Source: Planctomycetota bacterium (GTDB lineage Bacteria > Planctomycetota > UBA1135 > UBA2386). From it: DNA of 37,341 bases. The notes under the pieces are model-generated. The model did no database searches, was not told the DNA's origin, and worked only from the letters and a program-made list of their open reading frames with translations. The position numbers and the translations under genes were made by a program. The stretch is from contig JAYYEE010000227.1 of the NCBI GenBank assembly GCA_036160175.1, forward strand, positions 1 through 37,341. The letters run 5' to 3'. This document shows, one piece after another, positions 16,229 through 33,519 of this stretch; positions within the stretch are counted from its first letter, which is position 1, and the number at the start of each line of letters is the position of its first letter.

Positions 16229-17176
16229 CTAACGCGACCACTCAGATAAGTCGCGGCCGAGGAACTCGGCGAGCTCCTGGTTGGGGCGCTCAAAGAAGGC
16301 CAGGTACTTCGCGCGCACCTCGTCCGTCATCGGCTTGGGAGAGAACGCCGCGGCGGTCGCGCGGCTCGCGCTCGTCTTCGCGAGCAGCCGATACGCCCTG
16401 TCACGCCAGGACTCAGGCATGCGCTGCGCGAGCGGACCGAGCAGCGGGATGCGCGTGAAGCGCCCGGTGATCGCTCCGCGAATCCGCGCGCTGGTGATGC
16501 GCTGGCTGACGTTGGCGTTGCGGTCATCCATGGTGCGGAGCCGGGCGCTGTCAGGGTCAATGTCGAGGAACCGGCAGATGCCCTGCAGCGTCTTGAGCGG
16601 CGCGCGCTTGAAGTCCGTCGTCAGGACGACGTGGATCGCAGAGCGCGGGTAGTGCTCTAGGTATCGCTCGATCTGCCGCATGTACAAGCTCGAGTCGATG
16701 CACATGGGGTCGCGCTGCACGTGCTCTTCGAAGGTCGCTTGGACTGGTTCACCAGGGTGCAGTTCGCGCATGTAGCGGTGCACGTAGTGCGAATAGGCGC
16801 GCTCCACGGGGTGTCGGACGAGGTAGACGAGCCGCGCGTTCGGTGCGTGCGTCGCCATCCGCGCGGCGGTCGAAGGCAGCTGCGGCCAGCGCGTGTAGTT
16901 GGTGGAGGCGTCGACGCAGAGCTCGTCGGGCCGGGCGTCCTCATACAAGCGCGTGTACCAGCTGAGGCCCTTTTGGTAGTTCTCGTCAAACGAGAAGAAC
17001 GACGGCTCCTTCTGTTGTCCGAGCTCGTCCTCCAGGTGCCGGTCGAAGATCTTCGGGTGCGTGCACAGCTGCAGGAACAGGTTGGTCGTCGCGGACTTGG
17101 CCGCGCCGATGATCATCACCTCGGGGACCCGGCCGGGTCTGCTGCCCTGTGGGGCGCGGTGTTCCGCAGGAGTCAT
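16229..17176 (-). CDS. Sulfotransferase-family protein (PAPS-dependent type)
   Basis: 5'-PSB-like loop VMIIGAAKSATTNL and 3'-PB-like motif YLVRHPVERAYSHY. An internal ATG at 17116 is an alternative start. Confidence 0.75.
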   Translation of the reverse strand: MTPAEHRAPQGSRPGRVPEVMIIGAAKSATTNLFLQLCTHPKIFDRHLEDELGQQKEPSFFSFDENYQKGLSWYTRLYEDARPDELCVDASTNYTRWPQLPSTAARMATHAPNARLVYLVRHPVERAYSHYVHRYMRELHPGEPVQATFEEHVQRDPMCIDSSLYMRQIERYLEHYPRSAIHVVLTTDFKRAPLKTLQGICRFLDIDPDSARLRTMDDRNANVSQRITSARIRGAITGRFTRIPLLGPLAQRMPESWRDRAYRLLAKTSASRATAAAFSPKPMTDEVRAKYLAFFERPNQELAEFLGRDLSEWSR

Positions 17177-20592: not shown

Positions 20593-20632
20593 TGGCGGAG
20601 TCGGGCTCGTTTCGATATTCGTATTCGCCGCT

Positions 20633-21205
20633 ATGGCTTCCTACGGCACGAGTGATTTTAAGAAGGGACTGAAGGTCCAGATCGAGAACGAACCCTACCT
20701 GATGGTCGACCTCGAGTTCATGAAGCCGGGGAAAGGCCAAGCGGTCTACCGCGTGCGGCTCAAGAGCCTGACCACTGGTCGCGTCGTGGACAAGAACTAT
20801 CGCAGCGGCGACTCGCTAGAGGCCGCGGACGTCGAAGAGAGGTCGATGCAGTTCCTCTACAAGGACGCGACCGACTTCCACTTCATGGACGGCGAGAGCT
20901 TCGAGCAGTTTCAGGTGGGCGCCGACGCGGTCGGCGACGCGGCGAAGTGGCTCAAGGATGAGATGGAGTGCGACGTCGTCATGTGGAACGGCGCGCCGAT
21001 CACGGTGACGCCGCCGGCGCACGTCGAGATGAAGGTGACCTACACCGAGCCTGGCGCGAAGGGGAACTCGACCGGCAACGTGCAGAAGCCGGCGACCGTC
21101 GAGACCGGCGCGGAGCTGATGGTGCCGATCTTCATCAACAACGACGACGTCGTCCGCGTCGACACGCGCACGGGCGAATACGTCGAGCGCGTCTCCAAAG
21201 GCTGA
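20633..21205 (+). CDS. efp: Elongation factor P
   Basis: MASYGTSDFKKGLKVQIENEPYLMVDLEFMKPGKGQA.. places the modification lysine (K34) in PGKGQA. 190 aa. Confidence 0.95.
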   Translation: MASYGTSDFKKGLKVQIENEPYLMVDLEFMKPGKGQAVYRVRLKSLTTGRVVDKNYRSGDSLEAADVEERSMQFLYKDATDFHFMDGESFEQFQVGADAVGDAAKWLKDEMECDVVMWNGAPITVTPPAHVEMKVTYTEPGAKGNSTGNVQKPATVETGAELMVPIFINNDDVVRVDTRTGEYVERVSKG

Positions 21206-21219
21206 GCCAGGGAGCTCGC

Positions 21220-22164
21220 TTGGCCGCCGATCAGATCGCGGAGTTGCGGCGCCGCGCCGGGCTGGTGGCGCAGGCGCGCCGGTTCTTCGACGAGCGCGGC
21301 GTGCTTGAGGTCACCACGCCGCTGCTCGGCGACGGCGTGGTGGTCGAGGAGCACATCGACCCGATCCCCTGCTTCGTGCGGTTGGGGCCGGGAGCGCCGG
21401 TGGAGCGCCGGCTATTGACCTCGCCGGAAGGGCCGATGAAGCGGCTGCTCGCCGCGGGCGCTGGCCCGATCTACCAATTTGCGCACGCGTTCCGGGACGG
21501 CGAGGTCGGTCGTCGGCACGCGGTCGAGTTCACGATGCTCGAGTGGTACCGCCCCGGCATCGACCACTACGCGCTGATGGACGAGGTGGAGGCGCTGGTT
21601 CAGGAGCTGTTGCCGAGCGCGGCGGGCGGGCCCTTCGACCGGGTCACCTACCGCGAGCTGTTTGTAGAGTTCGCGGCGGTCGACCCGTTCGCGGTCACGC
21701 GGGCAGAAGCGCTGAACGCGTGCGGCGCGCTCGGCGTCGACGTGCCGGACAGCTACGACGGCGGGACGCTCGACGAGGCGCTCGACCTGCTCCTGGTCAG
21801 CTACATCGAGCCGCGGCTCGCGGGGCGCGGGCCGCTGTTCGTGCACGGCTACCCGCCGTCGCAGGCCGCGCTCGCGCAGGTGCGCGTCCCGGCTGGCGGG
21901 GGACCCGCGACGGCCGACCGCTTCGAGCTCTACGTTGGCGGCGTCGAGCTCGCGAACGGCTACCACGAGCTGGCAGACGCGGTCGAGCAGCGGCGGCGCT
22001 TCGAGGCGGCCAACCGCGCCAGGGAGGCCGCTGGGCGCCGCGCGCTGCCGCTCGACGAGCCGCTGCTCGCGTCGCTCGCTGCGGGATTTCCGCCGTGCGC
22101 GGGCGTCGCGCTCGGCTTCGACCGGTTGCTGATGCTGGCTGCGGGTCGGGATCACATCGCCTGA
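21220..22164 (+). CDS. epmA: EF-P--(R)-beta-lysine ligase EpmA (GenX/PoxA, LysRS class II paralog)
   Basis: aaRS class II motifs FRDGEVGRRHAVEFTMLEWY and GVALGFDRLLML. TTG 21220, just after the efp stop, is the assumed start. The 5' part of the long ORF overlaps efp out of frame. Confidence 0.85.
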   Translation: MAADQIAELRRRAGLVAQARRFFDERGVLEVTTPLLGDGVVVEEHIDPIPCFVRLGPGAPVERRLLTSPEGPMKRLLAAGAGPIYQFAHAFRDGEVGRRHAVEFTMLEWYRPGIDHYALMDEVEALVQELLPSAAGGPFDRVTYRELFVEFAAVDPFAVTRAEALNACGALGVDVPDSYDGGTLDEALDLLLVSYIEPRLAGRGPLFVHGYPPSQAALAQVRVPAGGGPATADRFELYVGGVELANGYHELADAVEQRRRFEAANRAREAAGRRALPLDEPLLASLAAGFPPCAGVALGFDRLLMLAAGRDHIA

Positions 22165-22273: not shown

Positions 22274-24280
22274 ATGAAGCCTCACGCCGCACATACCTCG
22301 ACGCTGCTCGCCGCGCTGCTGCTGGCGATCGCGCCGCCGGTCGCCGCGCAGGAGGATGGCGCGCCGCTCAAAGAGAAGATCGACAAGGCGATCAAGGATT
22401 ACGAGGCCGTACGGACGGACAAGACGAAGCTCGCGCAGCGGCGTCGCCTCGTCGGCTGGCTCGGCGAGATCGACCACCCGCGGGTGACCAAGTACCTCCA
22501 GAAGGAGCTCCGCAGCTACGCGAGGTTCGGCAGCGGCGTCTACGTGATCGAAGCGATGGGTAAGGTCGAGCGGCCGGAGGTCCAGGCGGACCTGATGAAG
22601 GCGGTCAAGCGACCAGACGCATACGTCTCGGTGCGGACGGCGGCGACGCAAGCGCTGGTCGCATTCGGCGATGAGGCCACCGACGAGCTGTTCGAGCTCG
22701 CGGTCGAGACGAAGAACGAAAGCATCAAGCGCGGGGTCATCGTCAGCCTCTGCGGCTGTGACTCGGCTCGCGTCAGGCGCGAGCTGGCCAAGCTGATCAC
22801 GGACGGCGAGCACGCCCACCGCCGCTACATGCTGCTCCACACGGCGACCGTCTCGTCAGACGAGGCCGTCGACCGCGCGCGCGTGCAGTGCGTAAAGGAG
22901 GGCAACCTGCTGGTCGCGGCGACGGCGTGGCGCATCCTGGCTGAGCAGGGTAGCGCGCGCGCCCTCACCCTGACGCTCGACGTGATCGAGCGGGTCTACG
23001 ACCAGCCAGACGCTGCGTCGGCCGTAGAGCTTGTCCGCGGGCTCGCGGCGGTCGGCGACGCCGACTTCTTCCCGGCCTTGCTCCGCTACGGGGCTGTTCG
23101 CGGCCGCGCGGTCAAGCAGGCGCTCAAGACGGCCGCGAAGAGCGTCGCCAAGCAGCCGGAGCTGATTCAGTTCTTGATCGAAGAGGGGCTCGAATCCGAG
23201 CTCACTCCGGAGCGGACGGCGGCCAAGATTTTGCTCGGCGAGGCGCCCGCAGAGTCGCTGCAGCCGCTCGTCGAGAAGATGCGTAAGCAGCTCCGGCGCA
23301 ACCGCAAGAAGGTCCTCGATACGGCTGCTGGGCTGCACGAGCTGCTCGTCAAGGACGCGTCGTGGGTCCAAGACCTGGCCTCGTTGGCCGCCGCGCCAGA
23401 CCTGGAGAGCCGGATGCTCGGGCTCGCGCTGCTGCTCGAGATGAAGTCGCCCGCGGCGATCACGTCTGCGCAAAAGTGCCTGAGGCACCGCGCGTGGGAG
23501 CTGCGCTCGCTCGCGTTCCGCTACCTCGCCGTCAATCGGGACGTCACCTCGATCCCGCTGTTGATCAGCCGCTACGGCGCAGAAGAAGGCCGCTTGAAGC
23601 ACGAGCTAGAGACCGCGTTGTTCTTGCATACGGGCAAGCGATGTTGGACTCGGAGTAACTGGAACAAGTGGTGGCGGAAGAGCAAAGAGGGGTTCGCGCT
23701 TCCTCACCCTGACACCGTCAAGGGCGGCGGGACCACGACTGGTGGGCAGACGGTCAGCTACTACGACATGCCGCTCGTCAGCTCGCGGATCGCCTTCGTG
23801 GTGGATCACAGCGGCTCGATGGCGGCGAAGGTTGGCACAGACAAGAAGCGCACCCGCCTCGACGTCGCCAAGGCGCAGCTGACGAACGTGGTCGAGAGCT
23901 TGCCCAAGACGCACAAGGTCAACGTCATCTTCTTCGAGTCAGCGATCACGTCCGTCTGGAAGGAGGTGAGGGCGCTGAGCGCTGGCAACCGCCGCGAGCT
24001 GCTAGATGACATCCAGGCCGTCAAGCAGACTGGCGGCACGAACCTCTATGACGCCGTCGAGTTCGCGTTCCAAGACCCCGAAGTCGACACCGTCTACCTG
24101 CTCACGGACGGCCAGCCCGGCGCCGGCAAGTACATCGAAGCCGAGGACATCGTCGAGCAAGTGCGGCTGATGAACCGCACGCGCCAGATCGTGATCCACT
24201 GCATCTCGATCGGCCGTCGCTCGACGCTGCTCAGCGACATCGCGAAGCAGTCGGGCGGGACCTACAAAGAGGTCCGCTAG
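22274..24280 (+). CDS. Secreted HEAT-repeat protein with a C-terminal von Willebrand factor A (VWA) domain
   Basis: Signal peptide ..LLLAIAPPVAAQ. There are repeated HEAT/PBS-lyase-like helices. The VWA domain has the MIDAS motif DHSGSM, then GGTNLYDAV and VYLLTDGQP. Confidence 0.75.
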   Translation: MKPHAAHTSTLLAALLLAIAPPVAAQEDGAPLKEKIDKAIKDYEAVRTDKTKLAQRRRLVGWLGEIDHPRVTKYLQKELRSYARFGSGVYVIEAMGKVERPEVQADLMKAVKRPDAYVSVRTAATQALVAFGDEATDELFELAVETKNESIKRGVIVSLCGCDSARVRRELAKLITDGEHAHRRYMLLHTATVSSDEAVDRARVQCVKEGNLLVAATAWRILAEQGSARALTLTLDVIERVYDQPDAASAVELVRGLAAVGDADFFPALLRYGAVRGRAVKQALKTAAKSVAKQPELIQFLIEEGLESELTPERTAAKILLGEAPAESLQPLVEKMRKQLRRNRKKVLDTAAGLHELLVKDASWVQDLASLAAAPDLESRMLGLALLLEMKSPAAITSAQKCLRHRAWELRSLAFRYLAVNRDVTSIPLLISRYGAEEGRLKHELETALFLHTGKRCWTRSNWNKWWRKSKEGFALPHPDTVKGGGTTTGGQTVSYYDMPLVSSRIAFVVDHSGSMAAKVGTDKKRTRLDVAKAQLTNVVESLPKTHKVNVIFFESAITSVWKEVRALSAGNRRELLDDIQAVKQTGGTNLYDAVEFAFQDPEVDTVYLLTDGQPGAGKYIEAEDIVEQVRLMNRTRQIVIHCISIGRRSTLLSDIAKQSGGTYKEVR

Positions 24281-25398
24281 AGACCCTTCACGAAGTTCTT
24301 CAGCGCGCCGACGACGTCGATCTGCTCGGCCTCGGTCAGCCCCTGGAAGATCGGCAGCGCCAGCGAGCGCCGGCTCGCTTCGTCCGCGACGGGGAAGTCC
24401 GCAGCGTCGCAGTCGAGGTAGCGGAAGCACGGCTGCCGGTGGAACGGAACAGGGTAGTAGACCGCGCAGCCGACGCCTTGCGCGCGCAGGTGCTGGATCG
24501 CCGGGTCTCGTTGATCTTCCGGGACGTGCAAAACGAACTGGTGGTAGGCGTGGCGGTCGGTGTCGGTGGGCAGCTCCGCCCACTCCAAGAGGTCGGCTTC
24601 TTCGAACAAGCGTCGGTAGTTCGCGGCGTTTTGACGTCGCCGCTCGGTGACGTCCTCCATCGAGCGCAGCTTCACCCGTAGCGCCGCGGCCTGCAGCGCG
24701 TCCATCCGGAAGTTCCCGCCGATGGTGTGGTGCAGGTACTGTTGCGCCATGCCGTGGTTGCGCAGCAGCTTGCACTGCTCATAGAAGTCGGTGTCGTTGG
24801 TGGTGAGGAAGCCGCCGTCGCCGATCCCGCCGAAGTTCTTGGTCGGGAACGTCGACCAGCCAGCGCAGAGCCCGTGGCCGCCGAGCATCCGCCCGCCGTG
24901 CTTCGACCCGATCGCCTGCGCGGCGTCTTCGATGAGCGGCACCGAGTGCTCGCGGCAGATGCGGACCACGGCGTCGACGTCGAACGCCGCGCCGAAGAGG
25001 TGCACGCCGACGACGGCCTTGGGGCGCTTGCATCCCTTGAGCGCAGCCTCGAGGCGCGCCGGGTCGATGTTCTTGAAGACGGGCTCAGAGTCGACGAACA
25101 CCGGCTTCGCGCCGGTGCGCGCGACCGTGCCTGCCGTGGCGAAGAAGGAATACGTCGGCAGGACGACCTCGTCGCCGGGCCCGATCCCGAGGGCCATCAT
25201 CGGCGCGAGCAGCGAGTCGGTGCCTGACGACATCGTGAGGGCGTGCTTGCACCCGAGGTAGGCAGCGAGCTCTTGCTCGAGGTTCTCGACTTCGGGGCCG
25301 AGGATGTACTGGCCGCTGCGCACCACGCGCACGACGGCGGCCTCAATTTCAGCGAGCTGCGCTTGGTCGCGCGTGAGATCGATCAAAGGAACCGGCAT
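24277..25398 (-). CDS. DegT/DnrJ/EryC1/StrS-family PLP-dependent (sugar) aminotransferase
   Basis: YILGPEVENLEQELAAYLG, SSGTDSLL, IEDAAQAIGS and STFPTKNFGGIGDGG (Schiff-base Lys region). Confidence 0.9.
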   Translation of the reverse strand: MPVPLIDLTRDQAQLAEIEAAVVRVVRSGQYILGPEVENLEQELAAYLGCKHALTMSSGTDSLLAPMMALGIGPGDEVVLPTYSFFATAGTVARTGAKPVFVDSEPVFKNIDPARLEAALKGCKRPKAVVGVHLFGAAFDVDAVVRICREHSVPLIEDAAQAIGSKHGGRMLGGHGLCAGWSTFPTKNFGGIGDGGFLTTNDTDFYEQCKLLRNHGMAQQYLHHTIGGNFRMDALQAAALRVKLRSMEDVTERRRQNAANYRRLFEEADLLEWAELPTDTDRHAYHQFVLHVPEDQRDPAIQHLRAQGVGCAVYYPVPFHRQPCFRYLDCDAADFPVADEASRRSLALPIFQGLTEAEQIDVVGALKNFVKGL

Positions 25399-25441
25399 TG
25401 GCGTCCGAGAGGATAGACCTCGCCGCGCCTAGCGAAAGGGC

Positions 25442-28400
25442 TCACTTGGCGTTCAGCGCGCCGTCTCGCCAGCGGTCGGCGAGCGAATAGACCGGCTCGC
25501 AGAGCAGGTCGACGACGGGCATCTCTGCGAGTAGTTCTTTGTCGAACGAGGGCTCGGTCTCGGTCACGGCGTCGGCGAGCGCTTGGTAACGGTTCCGATA
25601 GCCGCCGAGCACGCCGCAGAGCGCATCGGCCCCCAAGCGGTCATGAAAGCGCACGTGGAGCAGCGTCACCCCGACCGCGCGGTGGCCGTGCACCTCGGGG
25701 ACGATGATGACGGTGCGGTCATCGCTGCGGCCTCGCGCCACCATCAGGCGGCGCTCACTCGCCACGAGGTGCTTGGTCCCACGGAGCGTCGGGTTGGCCT
25801 CTGTCCGCGACGGGAAGTCGGCCGCGACCCCGCGCCGGTCGACGACCCGCGCGGTCGCGCTCTGCTCGTCGTCGCCATGATCGATCCGATAGCGCGTGCT
25901 GCCGAGGACTCCGCAGACCGCCGGGTCGAGGCTCGCGAGCGCCCGCAGATCCTCATATCCGAGGTGGTCGCGGGCGGCCCCTGCCGCAAGCACCTCCTGC
26001 ACCAGCGACGCGGTCAACATGGCTTCGTCGCTGCGCGAGATCCCCACGGTCACGGTCTTGGCTTGGTGCTTGATCGCGTCGACCGGTCGCGTGAGCTCGT
26101 CGATCGCGGTGGTCAGGGCCTCGGTCAGGCGGTCGACGACCGCTCCCGGCGCGCCGGGCTCGCCGAACTCGACCGGGTACGCGTCGAGCGGCGTCAGCTC
26201 CAGCGCGTAGTTGCCCAGCGACGTCAGTCGCGCAGCGGTGCGCGCCTCGAGCGTGCCGTCGTAGCGACCATTGAGCAGGTCGCCGCGGAAGGCCTCCCAG
26301 TGCGGGCGGAGCGCAGGCGCGAGCGCGCCGAGCACGCTCGTGGGCGAGTCCTCAGCGCCGAAGGTCGCTTCGATCACGCCGCGCATGCGGCGCAGCGGCG
26401 CCGCGAGCTCGTCGATGGCGAGCGCCGCGCGATAGCCGAACAGGTGGCCGGCCATCGTCGACAAGATGAAGGCCAGCGCCGGATGCGCGGGCGGGACCTC
26501 GATGACGCCGTCGGCGTCGTCGAACCGGGGTCCGCCGCGCGTCGTGATCACGATCGGGGACGCCTTGTGGGCCTTGTAGATCGCGACCTCCTTGCGGACG
26601 TCGTCTGCGGTCGACCCCGTCATGCCTGCCGCACAACACAGGATCATCGGCTCGGACGAGAGGTCGATGTGCTTCTTGTCCTCGGTCGCGTCGCAAGCGA
26701 TCGACTTGTAGCAGAGCTCCGACAGCTTGATACGGACCTCTGCCGCCGCGACCTGGTTGCGGCCGTTGCCGACCAGCGCCCAATAACGCCGCTGCGGCGC
26801 GTAGGCGCGCGCCAGATCGCGGATCTTCACGTCTTGTGCGAGGACCTCGCGCATCGCGTCAGGCAGCGCGCTCAGCGCGCTGAGCAGGGCGTGTTCTTCG
26901 CGGTCGTCGTGGCACCCGACCGCGCGCGCCAGCGCCAGCGCCAGCAGCTGACCCGCGGCGCACTGCGCGTAAAACGCCTTCGTGCTCGCGACGCTCATCT
27001 CGACGTCGCGACCGTCGGACGTGTACAGCACGCCGTCAGCCTTTTCGGTCAGGTCGCTGCCTCGGCGGTTGACGATGGCCAGGACAGCGGCGCCGCGGCT
27101 GCGCGCCAGGTCTACCGTGCGGTTCGTGTCGGTGGTGGTCCCGGACTGCGAGATGGCGACGAGCAGGGTGTCGCCCATCTCTGCGCCGAGGCCGAAGCCG
27201 GAGAGCTCCGTCGCCGGGATCGCTTCGACCTGGACGTCCGCGCGCGCGAGCGCGTCGCGGATCGCGGACGCGACCGCGCGTCCAGCGACCGCTGCGGTGC
27301 CCTGGCCGATGACCAGGATGCGCCGGACGCGTCCAGCCGCCAGGTCTGACGCCACCGCAGCGGGCAGCGACGCGTCGGGCAGCTCGACGCGGGCGCGACC
27401 GTCGACGGTGACGATGCGGCCTCGGAGCGTCTTTTGCAGCGAACTCGGCGACTCGCCGATCTCCTTCAGCAAGTAGTGCGGGTGATCGCCGCGGTCGATG
27501 TCGCGGGTCGTCACCTCGGCCGTGGTCAGGCTCGCCGCGTCGATCGGGAGCTCGCTGCCGTCGTAGGCGGCGCGCGTGACGCCAGCGAGCTCGCCGGCCC
27601 CGTCGCGTCTGAGCATGACCACTTGGCCGCGTGACCCTGTCGGGTTGTCGGGGTTGCCAGGGGTCTCGCCGTCGAGCCGCAGGTAACGGTCGCATTCTTC
27701 TACGACGCCGTAAGGTTCGCTGGCGACGACGAACGTATCTTCCGCGAAGCCGACGTAGAGCGCTTGCCCGGAGCCGCGCAAGGCGAGCGCGAGTTGGTCT
27801 GGGTGCGCGGTCGCCGCGGCGCCGATCGCGACCGATCCTTCGAGGCGCGTCACCGTGCGCGAGAACGCGTCCGCGAGGTCGTGCCCCTGACGCATTTGTC
27901 GGGAGACCATGGCCGGGATGACCTTTGCGTCGGTCGTGATCGCCGTGTGGAGCTTCAGCCCGTCTTGCTGGGCTAGGTCTTGGTGGTTGTCGACGTCACC
28001 GTTGAGCGCGCCGAGGACGTAGGGGCCGCTGCTGTCGTGCGCTTCCTCGTGATTGAGGGGGTGCGCGTTCGGCTGGCTGATGATGCCGACGCTCGCCCAG
28101 CGCGTGTGCCCGAGGACCAGGGTCTCTGCGGCTGGCTCGCGCATGGCGGTTTGCAGCAGGGTGTCCCGTCGCATGGCCTCGCGCAGCGCGGCGACGTTGT
28201 CGCCGAGCTCGCCGATCTCGGCGGCGTGCTTGTAGACGAAGTTGAGGCTGCCGTCGGCGCATCGCACCGCGCCGTCTTGGAACAGCGGGTCGTCATCGCG
28301 CGCAGCGAGCAGCTGCTGGATCGTGGGGGACTCTATGTCTAGACCGCTGACGATGATCGCGGCGCCGGCGGAGTCGCGGCCGCGGACCTCGAGGCGGTCG

Positions 28401-28870
28401 AGCGCGGCGAGCGCGGCTTCGATCGAAGAGAACGCGGCCGCGGCGCGCTGGTCAGGCAAGTCGCCGCCTGCGAGGTCTCGCACAGCCTCGGCGTGCGGGA
28501 CGCGGTCGCGGCGCAGGGCCCAGACCTGGTCCTTCAGGCGGACCATCTCGGCGTTGCGGCGTTCGACGTCGTCGCCCGCTGCGGCGCCGTCACGATCAGC
28601 TTCGACGGCGTGGGCGCGCCGATGGAGCGCGTCGGCGCGTTCGCGGAGCTCGGCGATCAGGCCCTCATGCTGCAGCAGGGCCCAGAGCCCGGGCACGCCA
28701 CGGAGCTCTCGATCGAGCGCTGCGAGCGCGTCGGCGGCGTCCGTGATCCCATCTACGGTCGGCGCGTCCGTGAGCGCCCCCTCGGCTGCAGCGAGCAGCG
28801 CGCGCAGGCGTTCTCGGCTCGGGGCCGCGCGCCGGCTTTGCCGGCGCAGCACGGCGATGATGCCACACAT
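25442..28870 (-). CDS. Giant GlmS-like protein: class II (Ntn) glutamine amidotransferase plus two SIS domains, with three additional modules (1142 aa)
   Basis: MCGII (nucleophile Cys2). LDRLEVRGRDSAG comes only after an insert of about 135 aa. Also LGHTRWASVG and NGDVDNH. SIS1: ILVIGQGTA..VAISQSGTTTDT..SVASTKAF. SIS2: YWALVGNGRNQVAAAEVRIKLSE. A GlmS-tail-like KTVTVG is followed by about 230 further aa. Confidence 0.8.
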   Translation of the reverse strand: MCGIIAVLRRQSRRAAPSRERLRALLAAAEGALTDAPTVDGITDAADALAALDRELRGVPGLWALLQHEGLIAELRERADALHRRAHAVEADRDGAAAGDDVERRNAEMVRLKDQVWALRRDRVPHAEAVRDLAGGDLPDQRAAAAFSSIEAALAALDRLEVRGRDSAGAAIIVSGLDIESPTIQQLLAARDDDPLFQDGAVRCADGSLNFVYKHAAEIGELGDNVAALREAMRRDTLLQTAMREPAAETLVLGHTRWASVGIISQPNAHPLNHEEAHDSSGPYVLGALNGDVDNHQDLAQQDGLKLHTAITTDAKVIPAMVSRQMRQGHDLADAFSRTVTRLEGSVAIGAAATAHPDQLALALRGSGQALYVGFAEDTFVVASEPYGVVEECDRYLRLDGETPGNPDNPTGSRGQVVMLRRDGAGELAGVTRAAYDGSELPIDAASLTTAEVTTRDIDRGDHPHYLLKEIGESPSSLQKTLRGRIVTVDGRARVELPDASLPAAVASDLAAGRVRRILVIGQGTAAVAGRAVASAIRDALARADVQVEAIPATELSGFGLGAEMGDTLLVAISQSGTTTDTNRTVDLARSRGAAVLAIVNRRGSDLTEKADGVLYTSDGRDVEMSVASTKAFYAQCAAGQLLALALARAVGCHDDREEHALLSALSALPDAMREVLAQDVKIRDLARAYAPQRRYWALVGNGRNQVAAAEVRIKLSELCYKSIACDATEDKKHIDLSSEPMILCCAAGMTGSTADDVRKEVAIYKAHKASPIVITTRGGPRFDDADGVIEVPPAHPALAFILSTMAGHLFGYRAALAIDELAAPLRRMRGVIEATFGAEDSPTSVLGALAPALRPHWEAFRGDLLNGRYDGTLEARTAARLTSLGNYALELTPLDAYPVEFGEPGAPGAVVDRLTEALTTAIDELTRPVDAIKHQAKTVTVGISRSDEAMLTASLVQEVLAAGAARDHLGYEDLRALASLDPAVCGVLGSTRYRIDHGDDEQSATARVVDRRGVAADFPSRTEANPTLRGTKHLVASERRLMVARGRSDDRTVIIVPEVHGHRAVGVTLLHVRFHDRLGADALCGVLGGYRNRYQALADAVTETEPSFDKELLAEMPVVDLLCEPVYSLADRWRDGALNAK

Positions 28871-28897
28871 CGGTTGGGAAGATCTCCTGGGTGGGCG

Positions 28898-30115
28898 CTA
28901 GCGCCCGTCGAACTGCCCGAGGCCGCGCCGAAGGTCTGCAGCGCGCTGGGTCTCTCCAGCATCATCGAGCATTTGGGCGAGCCGCTTGAGCCAGTCCGCC
29001 GCTGCTGGGGGCAGCGACGCGGGCGCGGCCTTGGCGTTGGTCTTGGGGGCCGCCTGCGAGATCCGCAGGCTGTCGCAAATCACCACACCGACGCTCTTCT
29101 CGAGCGCGATGGCTGCGCGATCTTGGAACAGCTCGGACCAAGCGTCGCCGCGGAGCGTGGCCGAATGCCCGCCGTCGAGGCCGAAGGAGACGGTGCCGTC
29201 TTCGCCCCATTGGAGGAACTGGTCGCCGTGCTTGCACGAGAGGAGCTCGACGCCGCCGACCGCGTCCGTGACGAGGTCGCGCTTGCGCTCTGGCGCCAGC
29301 AGCGTCTCTCCGGTCTTGGCTTCTAATACGGGGAGGAGCGCGGCGATCGCCGCGCGCTTGTCGCCCGCTTCAAACTTGGGGAACTGGTCTCCCAGCCAGC
29401 GACGCAGCGCCTTGCTCGACTCCGTCGCGAGGTTGGCGCCCCATGGGGTGCCCAAGAAGCTGCGCTCATCGGCGAGCGCGTCGACCAGGGGCTGCATCGG
29501 CGGCGTCACGCCGGACGTCAGCAGCAGCGTCGCGAGGCGGACGCGCGCGCGGGGGTCTGGCTCGCTCAGCCAGAACACCTCGTCGATCGGCTTGCCGCCC
29601 AAGATCATGCCGAGCCTCGCGTGCGCGCGCATCAGCCAGGCGGGGTCGTTCTCGGCGCGCACGGACATCAGGTAGTCGACCTGCGCCGGCGGGAGCCCGG
29701 GCGGCGTGCCGTCTTCTTCCGCGGACTTGTAGCGGGGTACGCGCAACGCGACCCCGCGCATCGCCGACGAGCGCCAGTAGAAGTCGGGGTTCATCGTCCA
29801 CGACCAGAGCAGCCGCGACACCTTCGGGCCGGCCTTGCCGCTGTCGGCGATCGCGTCGACGAGCGAGGCGGGCAGCGCGTTGAGGCCTTGCTCGGCCGCG
29901 TATGCCTCCACCGCCGCGACCGCCTCGTCGCCGCCGCCGGCGACCTTGCGCGCCGCCGCCAAGCGGATGCCGTAGCGCCGCGACGTGCACGCCTTCTTGA
30001 CGTGGCGCGACCAGTCCTCTGTCGCGGGGTCTTGTCGCGGCTCTACGCACAGCGCCAAGAGGGGCGCTGCGATCGCCGCGACGAGCGCGAGCCTGGAGAG
30101 CTTACCGGAGCTCAC
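28898..30115 (-). CDS. Hypothetical secreted protein, alpha-helical (HEAT/ARM-like) repeats
   Basis: N-terminal hydrophobic signal (LALVAAIAAPLLALC). GTG 30115 overlaps the upstream stop (GTGA). GC3 bias is strong. No family was recognised with confidence. Confidence 0.55.
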   Translation of the reverse strand: MSSGKLSRLALVAAIAAPLLALCVEPRQDPATEDWSRHVKKACTSRRYGIRLAAARKVAGGGDEAVAAVEAYAAEQGLNALPASLVDAIADSGKAGPKVSRLLWSWTMNPDFYWRSSAMRGVALRVPRYKSAEEDGTPPGLPPAQVDYLMSVRAENDPAWLMRAHARLGMILGGKPIDEVFWLSEPDPRARVRLATLLLTSGVTPPMQPLVDALADERSFLGTPWGANLATESSKALRRWLGDQFPKFEAGDKRAAIAALLPVLEAKTGETLLAPERKRDLVTDAVGGVELLSCKHGDQFLQWGEDGTVSFGLDGGHSATLRGDAWSELFQDRAAIALEKSVGVVICDSLRISQAAPKTNAKAAPASLPPAAADWLKRLAQMLDDAGETQRAADLRRGLGQFDGR

Positions 30116-30522
30116 TGCGACGTCGTCACCTGATCGGCGTCCATTTGGTAGATCATGATGACGTAGCCGTCTTCCTTCTCTTCGCCGATGTAGAGCTTGC
30201 CTGTGACCGTCACGATGCCCTCGTGCACGTCCTCGGTCTCGCCTTCAGGCAGCATGCAGAACACGATCTCATTCAGCTTCGGCGTGCCAGTGCAGCCGCA
30301 GTTGTCGTTGATCAGCATGAACGAGTTGACCGGGCCGTCGCCGGGGAACTCGCGGCGCATGAAGCCGCGGACCTTGACCTCCTTCTCGTCCCAGCTGGAG
30401 ACCTCCTTAGGCAAGGTCATCCCCTCGGTGTAGTCGAAGCCCGCCAGGACGTCGAAGCCGAGCGGCTCCGGCTGGCCCGCGAGGACAGACAGCACCAGGA
30501 AGGTCGAGAGCGGGCGGATCAT
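30112..30522 (-). CDS. Small secreted protein, possibly DUF3299 family
   Basis: Signal peptide MIRPLSTFLVLSVLAG. The core FMLINDNCGCTGTPKLNEIVFC resembles the Cys/His-containing core of DUF3299 proteins. The family call is tentative. Confidence 0.55.
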   Translation of the reverse strand: MIRPLSTFLVLSVLAGQPEPLGFDVLAGFDYTEGMTLPKEVSSWDEKEVKVRGFMRREFPGDGPVNSFMLINDNCGCTGTPKLNEIVFCMLPEGETEDVHEGIVTVTGKLYIGEEKEDGYVIMIYQMDADQVTTSQ

Positions 30523-30708
30523 CAGCGGATCGAAGGCAGACGTCGGCCCAACAGTGTAGCAAGCCCCCGGCGATCAGGGCGAATCTTCAAGCCCTCGCCG
30601 GCCGCCGGCCGCGCCCTTGCACCCTCTGCACCGGCGGCTTATCCCTCTGCCTGATATGAGGGGGCTAGCGTGTGCGCGTAGCCCACCTCCTCATAGAGTG
30701 GACGATCC

Positions 30709-31008
30709 ATGTATTTTTGCGCCGTCGGGCTGATCGCCCTCCTGCCCTTCGCCTACCTGTTCTGCCAGGTGTTCACCGTCGTGGTGTATGAAGGAGCGTG
30801 GCGCTGGTACTGCCTCGCGCCGCTGCCGTTGGTAGTCGGCGGCTTCTGCACCTTGTTCTACTTCGAGTCTCCGGTCGCGTTCGTGTTGGTGACGATCGGG
30901 GCGCCGACCGTCGGAATGATCGCGTTAGCGAGCGTCTGGGGTCTCTACAGCAAATCGGCAGCGGAGGCGTCGGCGGCCGCGCCCGACGGCGCGGCGGACA
31001 ACGGCTAA
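30709..31008 (+). CDS. Small Cys-containing membrane protein (99 aa, about 3 TM helices)
   Basis: Hydrophobic segments with good GC3 bias. It lies 75 nt upstream of, and co-oriented with, the DsbD-like gene. There are 4 Cys in predicted TM regions. Confidence 0.5.
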   Translation: MYFCAVGLIALLPFAYLFCQVFTVVVYEGAWRWYCLAPLPLVVGGFCTLFYFESPVAFVLVTIGAPTVGMIALASVWGLYSKSAAEASAAAPDGAADNG

Positions 31009-31083
31009 GAGCCAGCTTCACCACGGCAAGTTCTTTGGCCTGCCGCGTGTCGATCGCGCCCGGGCTCGTATCATCTCAGCCCG

Positions 31084-33519
31084 ATGCTTTCTCGACTTCG
31101 GCTGATGTGGTGCCTGCTGGTGACGTTGACGACGTCGCTGTTCGCGCAGGACGATCCCAAGTTCGTGCTCAAAGCCTCGCTTGAGCCCGCGACGGCGGCG
31201 CCCGGTGAGGCTGTGATGCTCGTGCTGCGCGCGACGACGGCTGCTGGTTGGCACGCCTACGGCACTTTGGAAACTGGCAACATCCCGGTCTCTCTCGACA
31301 CGGCAGCGCTTGAGCTGACCGGCCTGGAGCGCGCGGGCGAGGCGGACATCCCAGGCGGGTTGCAGGAGGTGTCGCCTTACGGGACGACCTATCCGCTGCC
31401 GGAGTCGTTCCGCGTGACGGTGCCGCTCAAGGTCGCGGCGGGCGCGACCGGCGCGCTCCGCGTCGCGGGCGGGCTGGGCTACCAGATCTGCATGCAGGGA
31501 TCGTGCGAGCAGCCGAACACCGCCGCGTTCGAGGCGACCGGGGAGGTCGCCGCAGCGGCGCCGGCGAGCAGCGCCGCCGTGCAGGAGCCGCCGCCGCCGA
31601 TCCCGGTGCCGGGGCTCGGCACGGTGCCAGGGCTGATGCTCGGCGGCGACGAGAAGGTGGCCGTGACCGCGAAGTTTGAACCTGCGACGGCGCGCGCCGG
31701 CGAGGTCACGACGCTGGTGCTCGACGTCAACGTCATCGACGGGTGGCACGCCTACGGCACCAAAGAGACCGGTCAGATCCCCGTCGAATACGCGCAGGAC
31801 AAGCAGGACGTCGGCAGCCTCGCGTTCGAGGGCGACCCGGTGGTGCCGCCGGGAGACCCGGTCGAGGTCTTCGACACCGTGCAGTATCAGCTGCCGCACC
31901 ACTTCGAGGTTCGACAGGCGTTCCGCGTCCCTACAGACGCGGCGCCGCGCGAGGTCACCATCGGCGGCGTGCTCGACTACCAGATCTGCAACGAGGTCGG
32001 CTGCGACCCGCCGGCAGAGGCGGAGTACGAGGCGACGCTGACGATCGAAGCGGGCGCCGCGCGCGCGGCGCAGTCGGAGGCCCCCAAGGCTACCGATCAC
32101 GCCGGCGACGACGAGGGCGTCGTGGACCCGGCCGACCCGTTCGGCAGCGGGGGGGCGCTGATCCTAGCCAGCATCGGCGGCGGCCTATTCGCGCTCGCGA
32201 TGCCGTGCACGTATCCGATGATCCCGATCACATTCAGCTTCTTCACCAAGCAGGCGGAGAAGGCCGGCGGCAACGTGCTGCCGCTGACGATCACCTACGG
32301 GCTGGGCATCATCGCGATGTTCGTGTTCGTCGGGGTCGCGTTGTCGGCGGTGATCATCGACGTCGTCAACCACTGGGCGACCAACGCCGTGATCGGCGCG
32401 ATGTTCTTCTTCTTCGCCGCGGTGCTGTTTGGATGGGTCAACCTCAACCCGCCCCAGTTCTTGCAGCGGCTGGCGACCAAGGCGCAGATGTCGGCGGCGG
32501 GCGCGCCCAGCGGCGGCTCTGGCTTGACGCTCGGCGGCCTCAGCGGCGTGTTCTTCATGGGCGCGACGCTGGTGTTGACCTCGTTCACGTGCACGGCGCC
32601 GATCGTCGGCTCGCTGATCGGCGGCATCGCCAAGCACGGCACCGCCAAGGTGGCGGTCGGCATGGGCATCTTCGGCCTGACGATGGCGATCCCGTTCATG
32701 GCGCTGTCGCTCGCCCCGACGAAGGTCAAGGCGATGCCCAAGTCGGGCGAGTGGATGGAGACGCTGAAGATCTCGCTCGGCTTCGTCGAGCTGGCGGCGG
32801 CGTTCAAGTTCGTGTCGATGGTCGACATCTACTTCGGCTGGGACGCCCTGCCGCGCGAGCTGTTCCTGATGCTGTGGGCCGCGGTCTTCGGGCTGTGGGC
32901 GCTCTACCTGTTCGGGGTGCTGCGCAAGGCCGGCACGCCGAGCATGGGCGTCGGCAACGGCAGGATGGCCGGCGGCATGATCGTCACGCTGCTCGCGACC
33001 TACTTCCTGTTCGGCGCGATGGGCAACCGGATGGACAAGATCATGACCGGCTTCGTGCCGGCCTACTCCAACCGCATCGTGATGAAGGGCGAGGGGAGCG
33101 GCCCCAAGGTCGAGGGCCACGTGATCGTCAAGGACGACCCGCAGAAGGCGATCGAGGTCGCCAAGGCCGAGGACAAGCTCGTGCTCTACAACTTCACCGG
33201 CTTCAACTGAAACAGCTGCCGGATCATGGAAGACAACATCTTCCTGGAGCAGGCGGTCGCCTCGCTCATGAAGCAGCACCTGGTCGAAGCCCGACTTCAC
33301 ACCGACTCGCCCAAGCACCTGACGGACGAGCAGTTCGCCAACAACCGCAAGGCGCAGGCCGAGCTGGCGGGCGTGAAGACCAACCCCTACTTCGTCATGG
33401 TCGACCCGAAGACCGGCGAGAAGGTAGGCGAGTTCGCGCTGTCTGGCGGCTTCGGCGCCTGGCCGGGTAAGTGGACCGAGTTCTTGCAGCGCATGGTCAA
33501 GAAGACCGGCCGCCAGTAG
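31084..33519 (+). CDS. DsbD-family thiol:disulfide interchange protein, predicted selenoprotein (Sec709 encoded by TGA 33208-33210), 811 aa if read through
   Basis: Signal peptide. Two DsbD-N/DsbC-like domains (..GWHAYGT..YQICMQGSCEQP and ..GWHAYGT..YQICNEVGCDPP). CcdA/DsbD membrane core with AMPCTYP and FTCTAP. ORFs 31084..33210 and 33226..33519 are in the same frame. Read-through yields a complete thioredoxin fold, LVLYNFTGFN-U-NSC-RIMEDNIF...GVKTNPYFVMVDPKTGE. Confidence 0.75.
33215..33257 (+). promoter_or_regulatory. Candidate bacterial SECIS hairpin downstream of the in-frame UGA
   Basis: Apical stem GGAAGA (33228-33233) / UCUUCC (33239-33244) with loop CAACA. A bulged U27 sits over UCA/UGG. 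Lower stem is CUGCC (33216-20) / GGCGG (33252-56). The loop lies about 24-28 nt 3' of the UGA. It was folded by eye and not scored against a model. Confidence 0.4.

What the first reader, a model, noticed from the sequence alone, without database searches (positions are those of the whole stretch)
25442..28870. 1142-aa GlmS-like protein with three extra modules
All hallmarks of glutamine--fructose-6-phosphate amidotransferase are present: the N-terminal nucleophile MCGII, RGRDSAG, HTRWAS, two SIS domains with SQSGTTTDT / ASTKAF, and a KTVTVG tail-like element. The protein is nevertheless nearly twice the usual length of about 610 aa. An Ala/Arg/Leu/Asp-rich, probably helical insert of about 135 aa separates Cys2 from the RGRDSAG helix. 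A segment of about 100 aa separates SIS2 from the tail-like KTVTVG. An unrecognised domain of about 230 aa follows (..LGSTRYRIDHGDDEQ...VIIVPEVHGHRAVGVTLLHVRF..). This suggests a regulated or substrate-altered amidotransferase rather than housekeeping GlmS.
Basis: partly seen in the sequence, partly recalled or inferred. Interest (0 to 1): 0.65.

Follow-up and report, generated by a model that had tools for sequence, protein, structure and literature searches.

The report
Double-length GlmS with three extra modules
This gene encodes an intact but twice-normal-length version of glucosamine-6-phosphate synthase, the first enzyme of amino-sugar and cell-wall precursor synthesis. It belongs to a large, uncharacterised family that fills the housekeeping glmS slot in Acidimicrobiia, and its extra folded modules probably add regulation rather than change the chemistry.

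Summary
It is not a fusion or frameshift artefact. More than 100 independent assemblies encode colinear proteins of about 1130-1165 aa, and at least 595 GTDB species representatives carry the C-terminal module. All GlmS catalytic and fructose-6-P-binding residues are conserved in 100 family members at 31-82% identity. That includes Lys938 in the tail-like AKTVTVG, which lies in the most conserved block of the family.

AlphaFold (pLDDT 86) gives a GlmS/GFAT core plus three modules. These are a helical module inserted after strand 1, a helical insert before the tail, and a C-terminal five-stranded alpha/beta domain. The C-terminal domain resembles PAS/GAF sensor folds only weakly, and no sequence library recognises any of the three.

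In Acidimicrobiia the gene sits in the classical actinobacterial slot rplM-rpsI-glmM-[glmS]-acpS-nnr-alr (46 of 48 loci). The Planctomycetota copies, this one included, form a clade nested inside Acidimicrobiia, which suggests horizontal acquisition.

Verdict: a long-form, probably housekeeping GlcN6P synthase with accessory, probably regulatory, modules. "Substrate-altered" is not supported. Whether a normal glmS co-exists could not be tested.

The parts
25442..28870 (-). Whole long-form glmS ORF (1142 aa plus stop codon at 25442-25444)
   Evidence: Family of colinear homologues.
28844..28870 (-). aa 1-9: Met, then the nucleophile Cys2 and first beta-strand of the Ntn glutaminase domain (MCGIIAVLR)
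   Evidence: C2 is invariant in A1 and present in 95 of 100 diverse members. Strand E4-9 in the model.
28436..28843 (-). aa 10-145: module 1, a helical insert between strand 1 and helix alpha-1 of the glutaminase domain (helices 19-32, 39-56, 58-67, 69-94, 102-134)
   Evidence: No E. coli counterpart. pLDDT is mostly above 90. No Pfam or NCBIfam hit. It is the least conserved part of the protein, with only D114 and W117 at 90% or more.
27491..28435 (-). aa 146-460: glutaminase (class II, Ntn) domain core with R163, H255-T-R-W258, N290-G291 and D314, plus small lineage-specific expansions
   Evidence: Pfam GATase_6 at 249-385. Residue mapping to E. coli R26, H71-W74, N98-G99 and D123. 99-100% conserved.
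26411..27490 (-). aa 461-820: isomerase domain (two SIS subdomains) with T525, S574-Q-S576, T579, S629, K631, K715, E718 and H734
   Evidence: Pfam SIS at 516-646. E. coli GlmS alignment over 228-818. Foldseek target-normalised TM-score of 0.82-0.87 to GlmS/GFAT isomerase domains. Residues conserved.
26096..26410 (-). aa 821-925: module 2, a helical insert between SIS2 and the catalytic tail
   Evidence: No E. coli counterpart. Helices 824-838, 846-866, 876-889, 895-902 and 908-935. No library hit.
26021..26095 (-). aa 926-950: internalised GlmS C-tail (TRPVDAIKHQAKTVTVGISRSDE) with Lys938, the equivalent of E. coli Lys603
   Evidence: Aligns to E. coli ...PRNLAKSVTVE. Invariant in A1. Most conserved block of the family. 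K938 is present in 99 of 100 members. pLDDT is below 50 for 937-949 in the full model.
25445..26020 (-). aa 951-1142: module 3, the C-terminal domain. It has helices, then a five-stranded sheet (985-997, 1006-1014, [short helices], 1043-1046, 1053-1061, 1064-1075), then five helices. The topology is PAS/GAF-like.
   Evidence: Models (pLDDT about 85-95). Foldseek gives only weak matches to the ACT/PAS region of L-GDH180 and to GAF and Cache domains. Conserved G990, Y994, G1014, S1021, R1022, G1031, K1033, G1047, D1050, P1058, H1072 and E1104. Absent from natural ~950-aa members.
24277..25398 (-). Downstream gene: DegT/DnrJ/EryC1-type PLP sugar aminotransferase (373 aa), 43 nt after the glmS stop
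   Evidence: Pfam PF01041, E=3.7e-108. No NCBIfam equivalog reached. Found 0.1-5.3 kb downstream in 11 of 17 Planctomycetota loci, so the linkage is loose.
28898..30115 (-). Upstream gene: 405-aa protein of unknown function, with a hydrophobic N-terminus that looks like a signal peptide and faint HEAT-like hits in relatives. It ends 27 nt before the glmS start.
   Evidence: No Pfam or NCBIfam hit. Directly upstream of long glmS in 16 of 16 Planctomycetota loci.
30112..30522 (-). Upstream gene: DUF3299-like protein (136 aa), overlapping the 405-aa gene by 4 nt
   Evidence: Pfam DUF3299, E=3.3e-4, below the cut-off. Conserved in 16 of 16 Planctomycetota loci.

Best explanation
The gene encodes a catalytically competent, long-form glutamine:fructose-6-phosphate amidotransferase (GlcN6P synthase, GlmS). 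Shown: the two-domain GlmS core and all of its catalytic residues are intact. The family is large, and in Acidimicrobiia it occupies the housekeeping glmS locus next to glmM. Inferred: the enzyme works as canonical GlmS does. Cys2 hydrolyses glutamine. Ammonia is channelled past Trp258 to the isomerase site. There Lys715, Glu718 and His734, together with Lys938 of the tail, convert Fru6P to GlcN6P, which GlmM takes over. About 530 extra residues form three folded accessory modules: a helical insert in the glutaminase domain, a helical insert before the tail, and a C-terminal PAS/GAF-like alpha/beta domain after it. Because the mobile catalytic tail is now an internal loop bracketed by modules 2 and 3, the most likely role of these modules is cis-acting control of tail closure or domain coupling. 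That would be allosteric regulation by a metabolite, possibly combined with a change in oligomerisation. This step is inference. The Planctomycetota lineage of the window most likely acquired the gene horizontally from an Acidimicrobiia-like donor.
For: Core identity. E. coli GlmS matches at E=7.7e-39 over residues 228-818. NCBIfam glmS models score 245-263 bits. Foldseek matches GFAT1/GlmS at E about 5e-30, with the isomerase domain at target-normalised TM-score 0.82-0.87.
Catalytic residues. C2, R163, H255, R257, W258, N290, G291, D314, T525, S574 (S/T), Q575, S576, T579, S629, K631, K715, E718, H734 and K938 are 95-100% conserved in 100 members at 31-82% identity. The tail block 926-950 is the most conserved segment.
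Not an artefact. There are 120 colinear homologues, about 100 full-length 50%-identity cluster representatives, and at least 595 species representatives with the C-terminal module.
Housekeeping role. 46 of 48 Acidimicrobiia loci have glmM directly upstream on the same strand, and 45 of 56 have acpS next downstream. The order is rplM-rpsI-glmM-X-acpS-nnr-alr-tsaEBD-groES/EL. From my own knowledge, this order matches the M. tuberculosis Rv3443c-Rv3417c region, where Rv3436c is glmS. Only glmM = Rv3441c was confirmed here (PMC11303689). No second glmS-like sequence occurs in the window or in any fetched locus.
Accessory modules. All are confidently folded, with full-model pLDDT 86.4 and pTM 0.75 and pLDDT 88.6 for the C-terminal model. 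The C-terminal domain is missing in complete natural ~950-aa members, so it is not needed for the core fold. Its best structural matches are sensor folds: the ACT/PAS region of L-GDH180, GAF and Cache (PMC8175468). The tail 937-949 is the only long low-confidence stretch in the full model. From my own knowledge, the canonical C-tail is disordered until the sugar phosphate binds, which would be consistent with this.
Horizontal transfer. In bootstrap neighbour-joining trees the Planctomycetota clade is monophyletic in 84 of 100 replicates and nested within Acidimicrobiia in 87 of 100.
Against: The protein fails the curated GlmS equivalog cut-offs (245 vs 418 bits and 263 vs 381 bits). NCBI names it only 'SIS domain-containing protein'. 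No activity data exist, and I found no paper on the long form. The sensor-fold similarity is weak: no Foldseek hit at E<=1e-3, target-normalised TM-score about 0.4, and no Pfam, NCBIfam or PDB sequence hit. The regulatory role is therefore inference. In the window, the neighbours are two proteins with hydrophobic, signal-peptide-like N-termini and a DegT aminotransferase, not glmM or glmU. A specialised role in Planctomycetota is not excluded. Other lineages place the gene in different contexts: a nitrogen-assimilation cluster and a NagB-like/kinase/aminotransferase cluster. Ser303 of E. coli is Ala526 here, and the tail no longer carries a free C-terminus. Whether these genomes also have a normal glmS was not testable.
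Confidence: 0.7

Rival explanations
1. It is a specialised, substrate-altered amidotransferase that feeds a secondary amino-sugar pathway together with the adjacent DegT aminotransferase, alongside a normal housekeeping GlmS elsewhere in the genome.
For: DegT lies 43 nt downstream in the window and within 0.1-5.3 kb in 11 of 17 Planctomycetota loci. One divergent member (36% identity) sits between a NagB-like gene, an FGGY kinase, an aminotransferase and a formyltransferase. The gene appears to have been acquired horizontally in Planctomycetota, so a native glmS could persist. The GlmS equivalog cut-off is not reached.
Against: All Fru6P-, phosphate- and glutamine-binding residues are conserved, apart from Ser303, which is Ala526. 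In Acidimicrobiia the gene is coupled to glmM in the housekeeping locus. From my own knowledge, DegT-family enzymes act on NDP-4-keto sugars, not on sugar phosphates. No nucleotidyltransferase or dehydratase gene accompanies them in the window. The DegT distance is variable, which looks like lineage synteny rather than an operon.
Confidence: 0.15
2. The extra modules are purely architectural, for example a different oligomer or a scaffold for GlmM or other partners, and have no ligand-sensing or regulatory function.
For: Modules 1 and 2 are all-helical and poorly conserved in sequence, with 0-2 positions at 90% or more. That is typical of packing or oligomerisation elements. The sensor-fold similarity of module 3 is weak. 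The gene is tightly coupled to glmM (2-bp gap in L009).
Against: Module 3 keeps a set of polar and charged residues (Y994, R1022, K1033, D1050, H1072, E1104) across 31-82% identity. It also has the strand order of small-molecule-binding PAS/GAF domains. The modules bracket the one mobile catalytic element.
Confidence: 0.2
3. It is an assembly, frameshift or gene-fusion artefact, or an inactive GlmS-derived pseudoenzyme.
For: The length is twice the norm. Pfam sees only one SIS domain and one GATase domain.
Against: The same colinear architecture appears in more than 100 independent assemblies from several sources, including a 7.19-Mb chromosome record and contigs of 1.2-1.7 Mb. GC3 is uniform. 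All catalytic residues are conserved under deep divergence.
Confidence: 0.02

Closest known systems
Bacterial GlmS (glutamine--fructose-6-phosphate aminotransferase, E. coli P17169; TIGR01135 / PRK00331; PDB 2J6H, 1JXA, 3OOJ)
   Same: N-terminal Cys nucleophile. Glutaminase residues R26, R73/W74, N98-G99 and D123. Two SIS subdomains. The phosphate loop SQSGxT. K485, E488, H504 and the AK[ST]VTV tail with K603. Adjacency to glmM in Acidimicrobiia.
   Different: 1142 aa rather than 609 aa. A ~135-aa helical insert follows strand 1. A ~105-aa helical insert precedes the tail. The tail is internal rather than C-terminal and is followed by a 199-aa domain. S303 is Ala and E351 is Thr. The protein scores below the curated family cut-offs.
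Eukaryotic GFAT1/GFPT1 (PDB 6R4E, 6SVP and others)
   Same: These are the top Foldseek hits, on a par with E. coli GlmS (E of about 5e-30 vs about 1e-29). Both are GlmS enzymes enlarged by lineage-specific insertions. From my own knowledge, GFAT1 is under allosteric feedback by UDP-GlcNAc and is controlled by phosphorylation within its insert.
   Different: GFAT is only about 680-700 aa. From my own knowledge, its insert lies at a different place in the glutaminase domain. It has no insert before the tail and no domain after it, and the tail is C-terminal.
Large glutamate dehydrogenases, L-GDH180 (PDB 7JSR; PMC8175468)
   Same: The analogy is a central nitrogen-metabolism enzyme more than doubled in size by flanking segments that include ACT-like and PAS-type putative metabolic sensor domains. 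It is the best, though weak, Foldseek hit for residues 821-1142 (E=8.5e-3).
   Different: The catalytic core is unrelated. The structural match is weak (query-normalised TM-score 0.35, rmsd 22 A), and there is no sequence similarity.
PAS / GAF / Cache small-molecule-binding sensor domains
   Same: The five-stranded antiparallel sheet has a helical segment between strands 2 and 3. There are many weak Foldseek matches to GAF domains such as 3E0Y, 4G3K, 3CI6, 3TRC and 3KSF, with probability 0.9-0.97.
   Different: No hit reaches E<=1e-3, and the target-normalised TM-score is about 0.4. No Pfam PAS or GAF match appears even at E<=10. No ligand is known.
Trans-acting or RNA-based GlmS control systems (glmS ribozyme, GlmY/GlmZ-RapZ, GlmR/YvcK)
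   Same: They are possible functional analogues. Each couples GlmS output to GlcN6P or UDP-GlcNAc status (GlmR: PMC6171935, listed; the others are from my own knowledge).
   Different: Here any control would be built into the polypeptide. No glmS ribozyme or other Rfam family is present in the window. The gaps upstream of the gene are 2-100 nt in most loci.

Membership tests
GlmS (glutamine--fructose-6-phosphate aminotransferase, isomerising) | Cys immediately after the initiator Met, acting as the Ntn nucleophile | tested here: met
   The ORF starts ATG TGT. C2 is invariant in A1 and present in 95 of 100 diverse members.
GlmS (glutamine--fructose-6-phosphate aminotransferase, isomerising) | Glutaminase site residues: R26, R73/W74 (Q-loop and channel gate), N98-G99 oxyanion hole, D123 | tested here: met
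   R163, R257/W258, N290-G291 and D314 align to them and are 99-100% conserved.
GlmS (glutamine--fructose-6-phosphate aminotransferase, isomerising) | Isomerase domain made of two SIS subdomains | tested here: met
   Pfam detects one SIS domain at 516-646. The E. coli alignment spans both subdomains, 459-818. The AF2 model superposes on GlmS/GFAT isomerase domains at target-normalised TM-score 0.82-0.87.
GlmS (glutamine--fructose-6-phosphate aminotransferase, isomerising) | Sugar-phosphate binding and catalytic residues: T302/S303, S347-Q-S349, T352, K485, E488, H504 | tested here: met
   T525, S574-Q575-S576, T579, K715, E718 and H734 are conserved (S574 is S or T). The only exception is S303, which is an invariant A526.
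GlmS (glutamine--fructose-6-phosphate aminotransferase, isomerising) | C-terminal decapeptide (C-tail) with K603 that closes over the sugar site | tested here: inconclusive
   The motif HQAKTVTVG with K938 is present and is the most conserved block. It is internal, however, followed by 199 residues and preceded by a 105-aa insert. It is modelled with pLDDT below 50. Whether it closes the site as in GlmS is not shown.
GlmS (glutamine--fructose-6-phosphate aminotransferase, isomerising) | Score above the curated equivalog/subfamily HMM cut-off (TIGR01135 418 bits; NF001484 381 bits) | tested here: not met
   245.3 and 262.7 bits, aligned over 225-818 only.
GlmS (glutamine--fructose-6-phosphate aminotransferase, isomerising) | Genomic association with the UDP-GlcNAc pathway (glmM or glmU) | tested here: inconclusive
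   Met in relatives: glmM is directly upstream in 46 of 48 Acidimicrobiia loci. Not met in the window or in the 17 Planctomycetota loci.
GlmS (glutamine--fructose-6-phosphate aminotransferase, isomerising) | Glutamine-dependent conversion of Fru6P to GlcN6P | not testable with these tools
   This needs an enzyme assay or genetic complementation.
PAS/GAF-type small-molecule sensor domain (C-terminal module only) | Sequence match to a PAS, GAF or Cache profile | tested here: not met
   No Pfam hit at E<=10 for the query or for 20 members. No NCBIfam hit and no PDB sequence hit.
PAS/GAF-type small-molecule sensor domain (C-terminal module only) | Fold: antiparallel five- or six-stranded sheet with helices between strands 2 and 3, superposable on known domains | tested here: inconclusive
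   The DSSP strand and helix order fits. Foldseek hits to GAF, PAS and Cache domains have E of 0.02-0.1, probability up to 0.97 and target-normalised TM-score of about 0.4. None reaches E<=1e-3.
PAS/GAF-type small-molecule sensor domain (C-terminal module only) | Binds a small ligand that changes the output of the attached domain | not testable with these tools
   This needs binding and kinetic experiments.

The most novel reading that the evidence does not exclude
The long form is a self-regulating GlmS. The C-terminal PAS/GAF-like domain would bind a pathway or nitrogen-status metabolite, such as UDP-GlcNAc, GlcN6P, glutamine or 2-oxoglutarate. Through the helical modules that bracket the internalised catalytic tail, it would open or close the sugar site and ammonia channel. 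This would be a protein-encoded, cis-acting counterpart of the glmS ribozyme, GlmY/Z or GlmR controls. It would be used by the Acidimicrobiia lineages sampled here and would have spread horizontally to a Planctomycetota clade and perhaps to other phyla.
Probability: 0.3. Interest if true: 0.7.

Novelty: new variant of a known kind. Interest (0 to 1): 0.5.

Why it matters
GlmS is the committed step to UDP-GlcNAc, and so to peptidoglycan, and it is tightly regulated in every organism where it has been studied. Each major lineage seems to have its own solution: a ribozyme, small RNAs, GlmR, or UDP-GlcNAc feedback in eukaryotes. A form of about 1140 aa fills the housekeeping slot in Acidimicrobiia, which are abundant in soils, freshwater, oceans and activated sludge. 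That finding points to another, so far unstudied, solution. It also defines three domains with no family assignment in Pfam, NCBIfam or the PDB. A practical consequence follows: curated GlmS models miss these proteins. NCBI calls them 'SIS domain-containing protein', so automated metabolic reconstructions may wrongly score these genomes as lacking glmS.

Tried and rejected
1. Artefact or fusion: rejected, because the same architecture occurs in many independent assemblies.
2. Sequence-library identification of the three modules returned nothing usable. I tried Pfam at E<=10 on the segments and on 20 aligned members, NCBIfam at E<=1, and a PDB profile search at E<=10. The only recurrent hit was CheW in 5 of 20 members, best E=0.0095, which I treated as chance.
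3. A search with the C-terminal 321 aa for other architectures returned only fragments of the same family.
4. glmS ribozyme or other RNA element: no Rfam hit in the window. The promoter and terminator consensus scan of 24000-31100 found nothing.
5. A second glmS nearby: tblastn with E. coli GlmS found only the long gene in the window and in 85 of the 89 loci fetched up to that call.
6. Literature: six full-text searches found nothing on a long GlmS in Planctomycetes or Acidimicrobiia. One search retrieved the L-GDH180 paper used for the analogy.
7. A whole-genome test for a co-existing canonical glmS was not possible.
8. The window protein itself is not on record in the contig index, so its closest relative P0001 (81% identity) was used for synteny.
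9. Inter-module contacts could not be read, because model coordinates are not exposed. I did not attempt covariation analysis with about 300 sequences.

Full report
OBSERVATION. The window contains an uninterrupted 1142-codon ORF at 25442-28870 on the minus strand. Its third-position GC of 0.87 matches the neighbouring genes. The ORF starts ATG-TGT, with GGAG 13 nt upstream.

Pfam recognises only a class-II glutamine amidotransferase domain (249-385) and one SIS domain (516-646). The NCBIfam GlmS models align over residues 225-818 but score 245-263 bits, well below their cut-offs of 418 and 381. The best PDB sequence match is E. coli GlmS, E=7.7e-39 over residues 228-818.

An alignment that includes E. 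coli GlmS places the extra sequence at residues 10-145, 821-925 and 944-1142. Residues 44-590 agree with the alignment printed. Smaller expansions lie at about 176-232, 276-283, 401-424 and 439-448. The last module is 199 aa rather than about 230 aa. The two 'SIS' motifs quoted both lie in the first SIS subdomain.

NOT AN ARTEFACT. A search of the 5.8-billion-protein collection returned 120 listed homologues. Nearly all are 1132-1165 aa, 58-81% identical and colinear over 99-100% of the query. They come from NCBI, ENA, JGI and Logan assemblies labelled Planctomycetota or Acidimicrobiales. In a 48-sequence alignment the extra segments are conserved, with mean top-residue frequency of 0.55-0.71 against 0.78-0.83 for the catalytic domains.

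An exhaustive HMMER search of 1.84 billion cluster representatives found about 100 full-length representatives of 1100-1260 aa, down to 34-40% identity, all matching from about residue 1 to about residue 1135. Named members include Acidimicrobiaceae, Candidatus Xenobia and Desulfobacterales. The best 80 are 17 Planctomycetota, 62 Acidimicrobiia or other Actinomycetota MAGs (Microthrixaceae, Ilumatobacteraceae, Iamia, 'Ferrithrix') and one unlabelled bacterium.

THE CATALYTIC MACHINERY IS COMPLETE. The E. coli residues map as follows (mature numbering):
- Cys1 to C2
- Arg26 to R163
- His71-Thr-Arg73-Trp74 to H255-W258
- Asn98-Gly99 to N290-G291
- Asp123 to D314
- Thr302 to T525
- Ser347-Gln-Ser349 and Thr352 to S574-S576 and T579
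- Lys485 to K715
- Glu488 to E718
- His504 to H734
- Lys603 to K938

The only differences are Ser303 to Ala526 and Glu351 to Thr578. In 100 family members spanning 31-82% identity to the query, each of these positions is 95-100% conserved, with S574 being Ser or Thr. The tail block 926-950 (TRPVDAIKHQAKTVTVGISRxDE) is the most conserved stretch of the whole protein. Its mean top-residue frequency is 0.79, against 0.62 for the SIS domains. This argues strongly for an active Gln:Fru6P amidotransferase and against an altered sugar substrate or a pseudoenzyme.

STRUCTURE OF THE MODULES. AlphaFold2 on the 48-sequence alignment gave mean pLDDT 86.4 and pTM 0.75. Foldseek against the PDB returned human GFAT1 and E. 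coli GlmS at E of about 5e-30. Isolated isomerase domains superposed at target-normalised TM-score 0.82-0.87.
- Module 1 (10-145) is five helices (19-32, 39-56, 58-67, 69-94, 102-134). They are inserted between strand 1 and the canonical helix that leads into RGRDSAG. pLDDT is mostly above 90.
- Module 2 (821-925) is helical (824-838, 846-866, 876-889, 895-902, 908-935).
- The tail 937-949 is the only long segment with pLDDT below 50. From my own knowledge, the canonical C-tail is disordered until the sugar phosphate binds, and this would be consistent with that.
- Module 3 (951-1142) has helices, then strands 985-997 and 1006-1014, three short helices, strands 1043-1046, 1053-1061 and 1064-1075, and five closing helices. 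This is the strand order of PAS/GAF-type domains.

A separate model of residues 821-1142 (pLDDT 88.6) gave no Foldseek hit at E<=1e-3. Its best matches were the N-terminal regulatory region of the 180-kDa glutamate dehydrogenase 7JSR (E=8.5e-3) and a long series of GAF, Cache and PAS sensor domains (E of 0.02-0.1, probability up to 0.97, target-normalised TM-score about 0.4). [quoted passage not shown]

None of the modules matches Pfam, NCBIfam or PDB sequences, even at permissive thresholds. Across the diverse family, module 3 retains G990, Y994, G1014, S1021, R1022, G1031, K1033, G1047, D1050, P1058, H1072 (89%) and E1104. Modules 1 and 2 keep almost no invariant positions.

Four cluster representatives of about 940-1190 aa end 10-20 residues after AKTVTVG. 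One of them, P0336 (949 aa), is a complete gene inside its contig, with a convergent gene starting 10 nt after it. Module 3 is therefore a separable add-on. Modules 1 and 2 can exist without it.

GENOMIC CONTEXT. In the window, the gene is third of four same-strand genes:
- a DUF3299-like gene (30112-30522)
- a 405-aa protein of unknown function with a hydrophobic, signal-peptide-like N-terminus (28898-30115, overlapping the DUF3299-like gene by 4 nt)
- the long glmS, 27 nt later
- a DegT-family aminotransferase, 43 nt later (24277-25398)

The rest of the window is ordinary housekeeping: purH, nth, ribD, modABC, ychF, etfAB, epmB-efp-epmA, dsbD and others. It has no glmM, glmU or second glmS.

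In two Acidimicrobiales MAGs the long gene lies in rplM-rpsI-glmM-[long glmS]-acpS-nnr-alr-tsaE-tsaB-rimI-tsaD-groES-groEL, with a 2-bp gap after glmM in one of them. Across the fetched species representatives, 46 of 48 Acidimicrobiia loci with enough upstream sequence have glmM upstream on the same strand, mostly less than 300 nt away. 45 of 56 have acpS next downstream. From my own knowledge of the M. tuberculosis H37Rv map, this is the position of canonical glmS: Rv3443c rplM, Rv3442c rpsI, Rv3441c glmM, Rv3436c glmS, Rv3423c alr and Rv3418c/17c groES/EL. Only glmM = Rv3441c was confirmed here (PMC11303689). The long form is therefore the positional equivalent of housekeeping glmS in Acidimicrobiia.

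In Planctomycetota the DUF3299/405-aa pair precedes the gene in 16 of 16 loci. DegT follows at a variable distance of 0.1-5.3 kb in 11 of 17. That pattern looks like clade synteny rather than a tight functional operon with DegT.

More distant members sit elsewhere. In a Desulfobacterales contig the order is ntrC-glnA-gltB/D-[long form]-hisH-hisF-nadE. In another contig of unknown taxon the neighbours are NagB-like, FGGY kinase, aminotransferase and formyltransferase genes. Two further contexts were uninformative.

EVOLUTION. A neighbour-joining tree rooted with E. coli GlmS places the Planctomycetota sequences as one clade inside the Acidimicrobiia radiation. In 100 bootstrap replicates on 1115 columns, the Planctomycetota are monophyletic in 84. 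They are nested with some but not all Acidimicrobiia in 87. Acidimicrobiia are monophyletic to their exclusion in only 1. This is distance-based and only moderately supported. It does fit the 57-61% identity between the two phyla. It suggests horizontal transfer into the ancestor of this Planctomycetota clade.

INTERPRETATION. Shown: a real, widespread, double-length GlmS homologue with an intact catalytic apparatus, three confidently folded extra modules, and housekeeping synteny in Acidimicrobiia. Inferred: (i) it makes GlcN6P from Fru6P and glutamine by the canonical mechanism; (ii) the modules are accessory. The catalytic tail has become an internal loop clamped between module 2 and a PAS/GAF-like module 3. 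The most economical mechanism is therefore cis-acting allosteric control of tail closure or of coupling between the glutaminase and isomerase domains, possibly with an altered oligomer. The ligand is unknown. A purely architectural role remains a serious alternative.

For the Planctomycetota in the window, the horizontally acquired gene may have replaced a native glmS or may co-exist with one. I could not test this.

NOVELTY AND SCORE. Full-text searches found no description of a long-form GlmS. JGI labels these proteins GlmS. NCBI labels full-length members 'SIS domain-containing protein' and some C-terminal fragments 'glucosamine-6-phosphate synthase'. I rate it a new variant of a known kind, of moderate interest (0.5). 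It is not a new chemistry. It is an unrecognised, class-wide architecture of a heavily regulated enzyme, and it has three domains with no family assignment.

Noticed in passing
window 28898-30522 (-); L001, L005-L007, L010-L023, L026, L042, L081: A DUF3299-like gene and a ~390-405-aa protein lie directly upstream of the long glmS in 16 of 16 Planctomycetota loci. The larger protein has a hydrophobic, signal-peptide-like N-terminus and faint HEAT-like hits. The arrangement holds even where that protein is only 32% identical. The reason for this conserved trio is unknown.
   Followed up: partly
L094 2868-5717 (P0336); also P0258, P0277, P0364: Family members of about 940-1190 aa stop 10-20 residues after the AKTVTVG tail and lack the C-terminal domain. 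P0336 is a complete gene followed by a convergent gene. This is a natural 'delta-C' form, useful for comparison.
   Followed up: partly
L090 1-15413 (Desulfobacterales contig, P0299): The long form (40% identity) is embedded in a cluster of nitrogen-assimilation and glutamine-amidotransferase genes. These are a sigma-54 activator with GAF, glnA, GATase, gltB/gltD-like genes, hisH/hisF-like genes and glutamine-dependent NAD synthase. This is a hint that nitrogen status may be relevant to the family.
   Followed up: no
L093 7117-14992 (P0333): A divergent long form (36% identity, catalytic residues intact) is flanked by a NagB/6-phosphogluconolactonase-family gene, an FGGY kinase, a class-III aminotransferase and a formyltransferase. 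This may be a specialised amino-sugar pathway in that lineage.
   Followed up: no
P0127, P0152, P0190, P0206, P0218, P0219: ORFs of about 300-370 aa correspond only to the C-terminal part of the long form, yet they lie on contigs of 60-380 kb. They could be split genes or frameshifts in long-read assemblies.
   Followed up: no
P0299, P0312: Some distant members have about 45-55 residues before the catalytic Cys (...CCGLAG...PCGIAG). Either the start is mis-called or there is a propeptide that must be removed to expose the Ntn cysteine.
   Followed up: no
window 19555-22164: A radical-SAM gene (lysine 2,3-aminomutase-like, epmB), efp and a class-II tRNA-synthetase-like gene (epmA/GenX-like) lie together. 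That is the EF-P beta-lysylation set. The mechanical ORF for epmA (20968-22164) overlaps efp (20633-21205), so its true start is probably further downstream.
   Followed up: no
window 16229-17176 (-) and 22274-24280 (+): A sulfotransferase-domain protein, and a 668-aa HEAT-repeat plus VWA-domain protein with a hydrophobic, signal-peptide-like N-terminus. The latter is convergent with the DegT gene and overlaps it by 4 nt.
   Followed up: no
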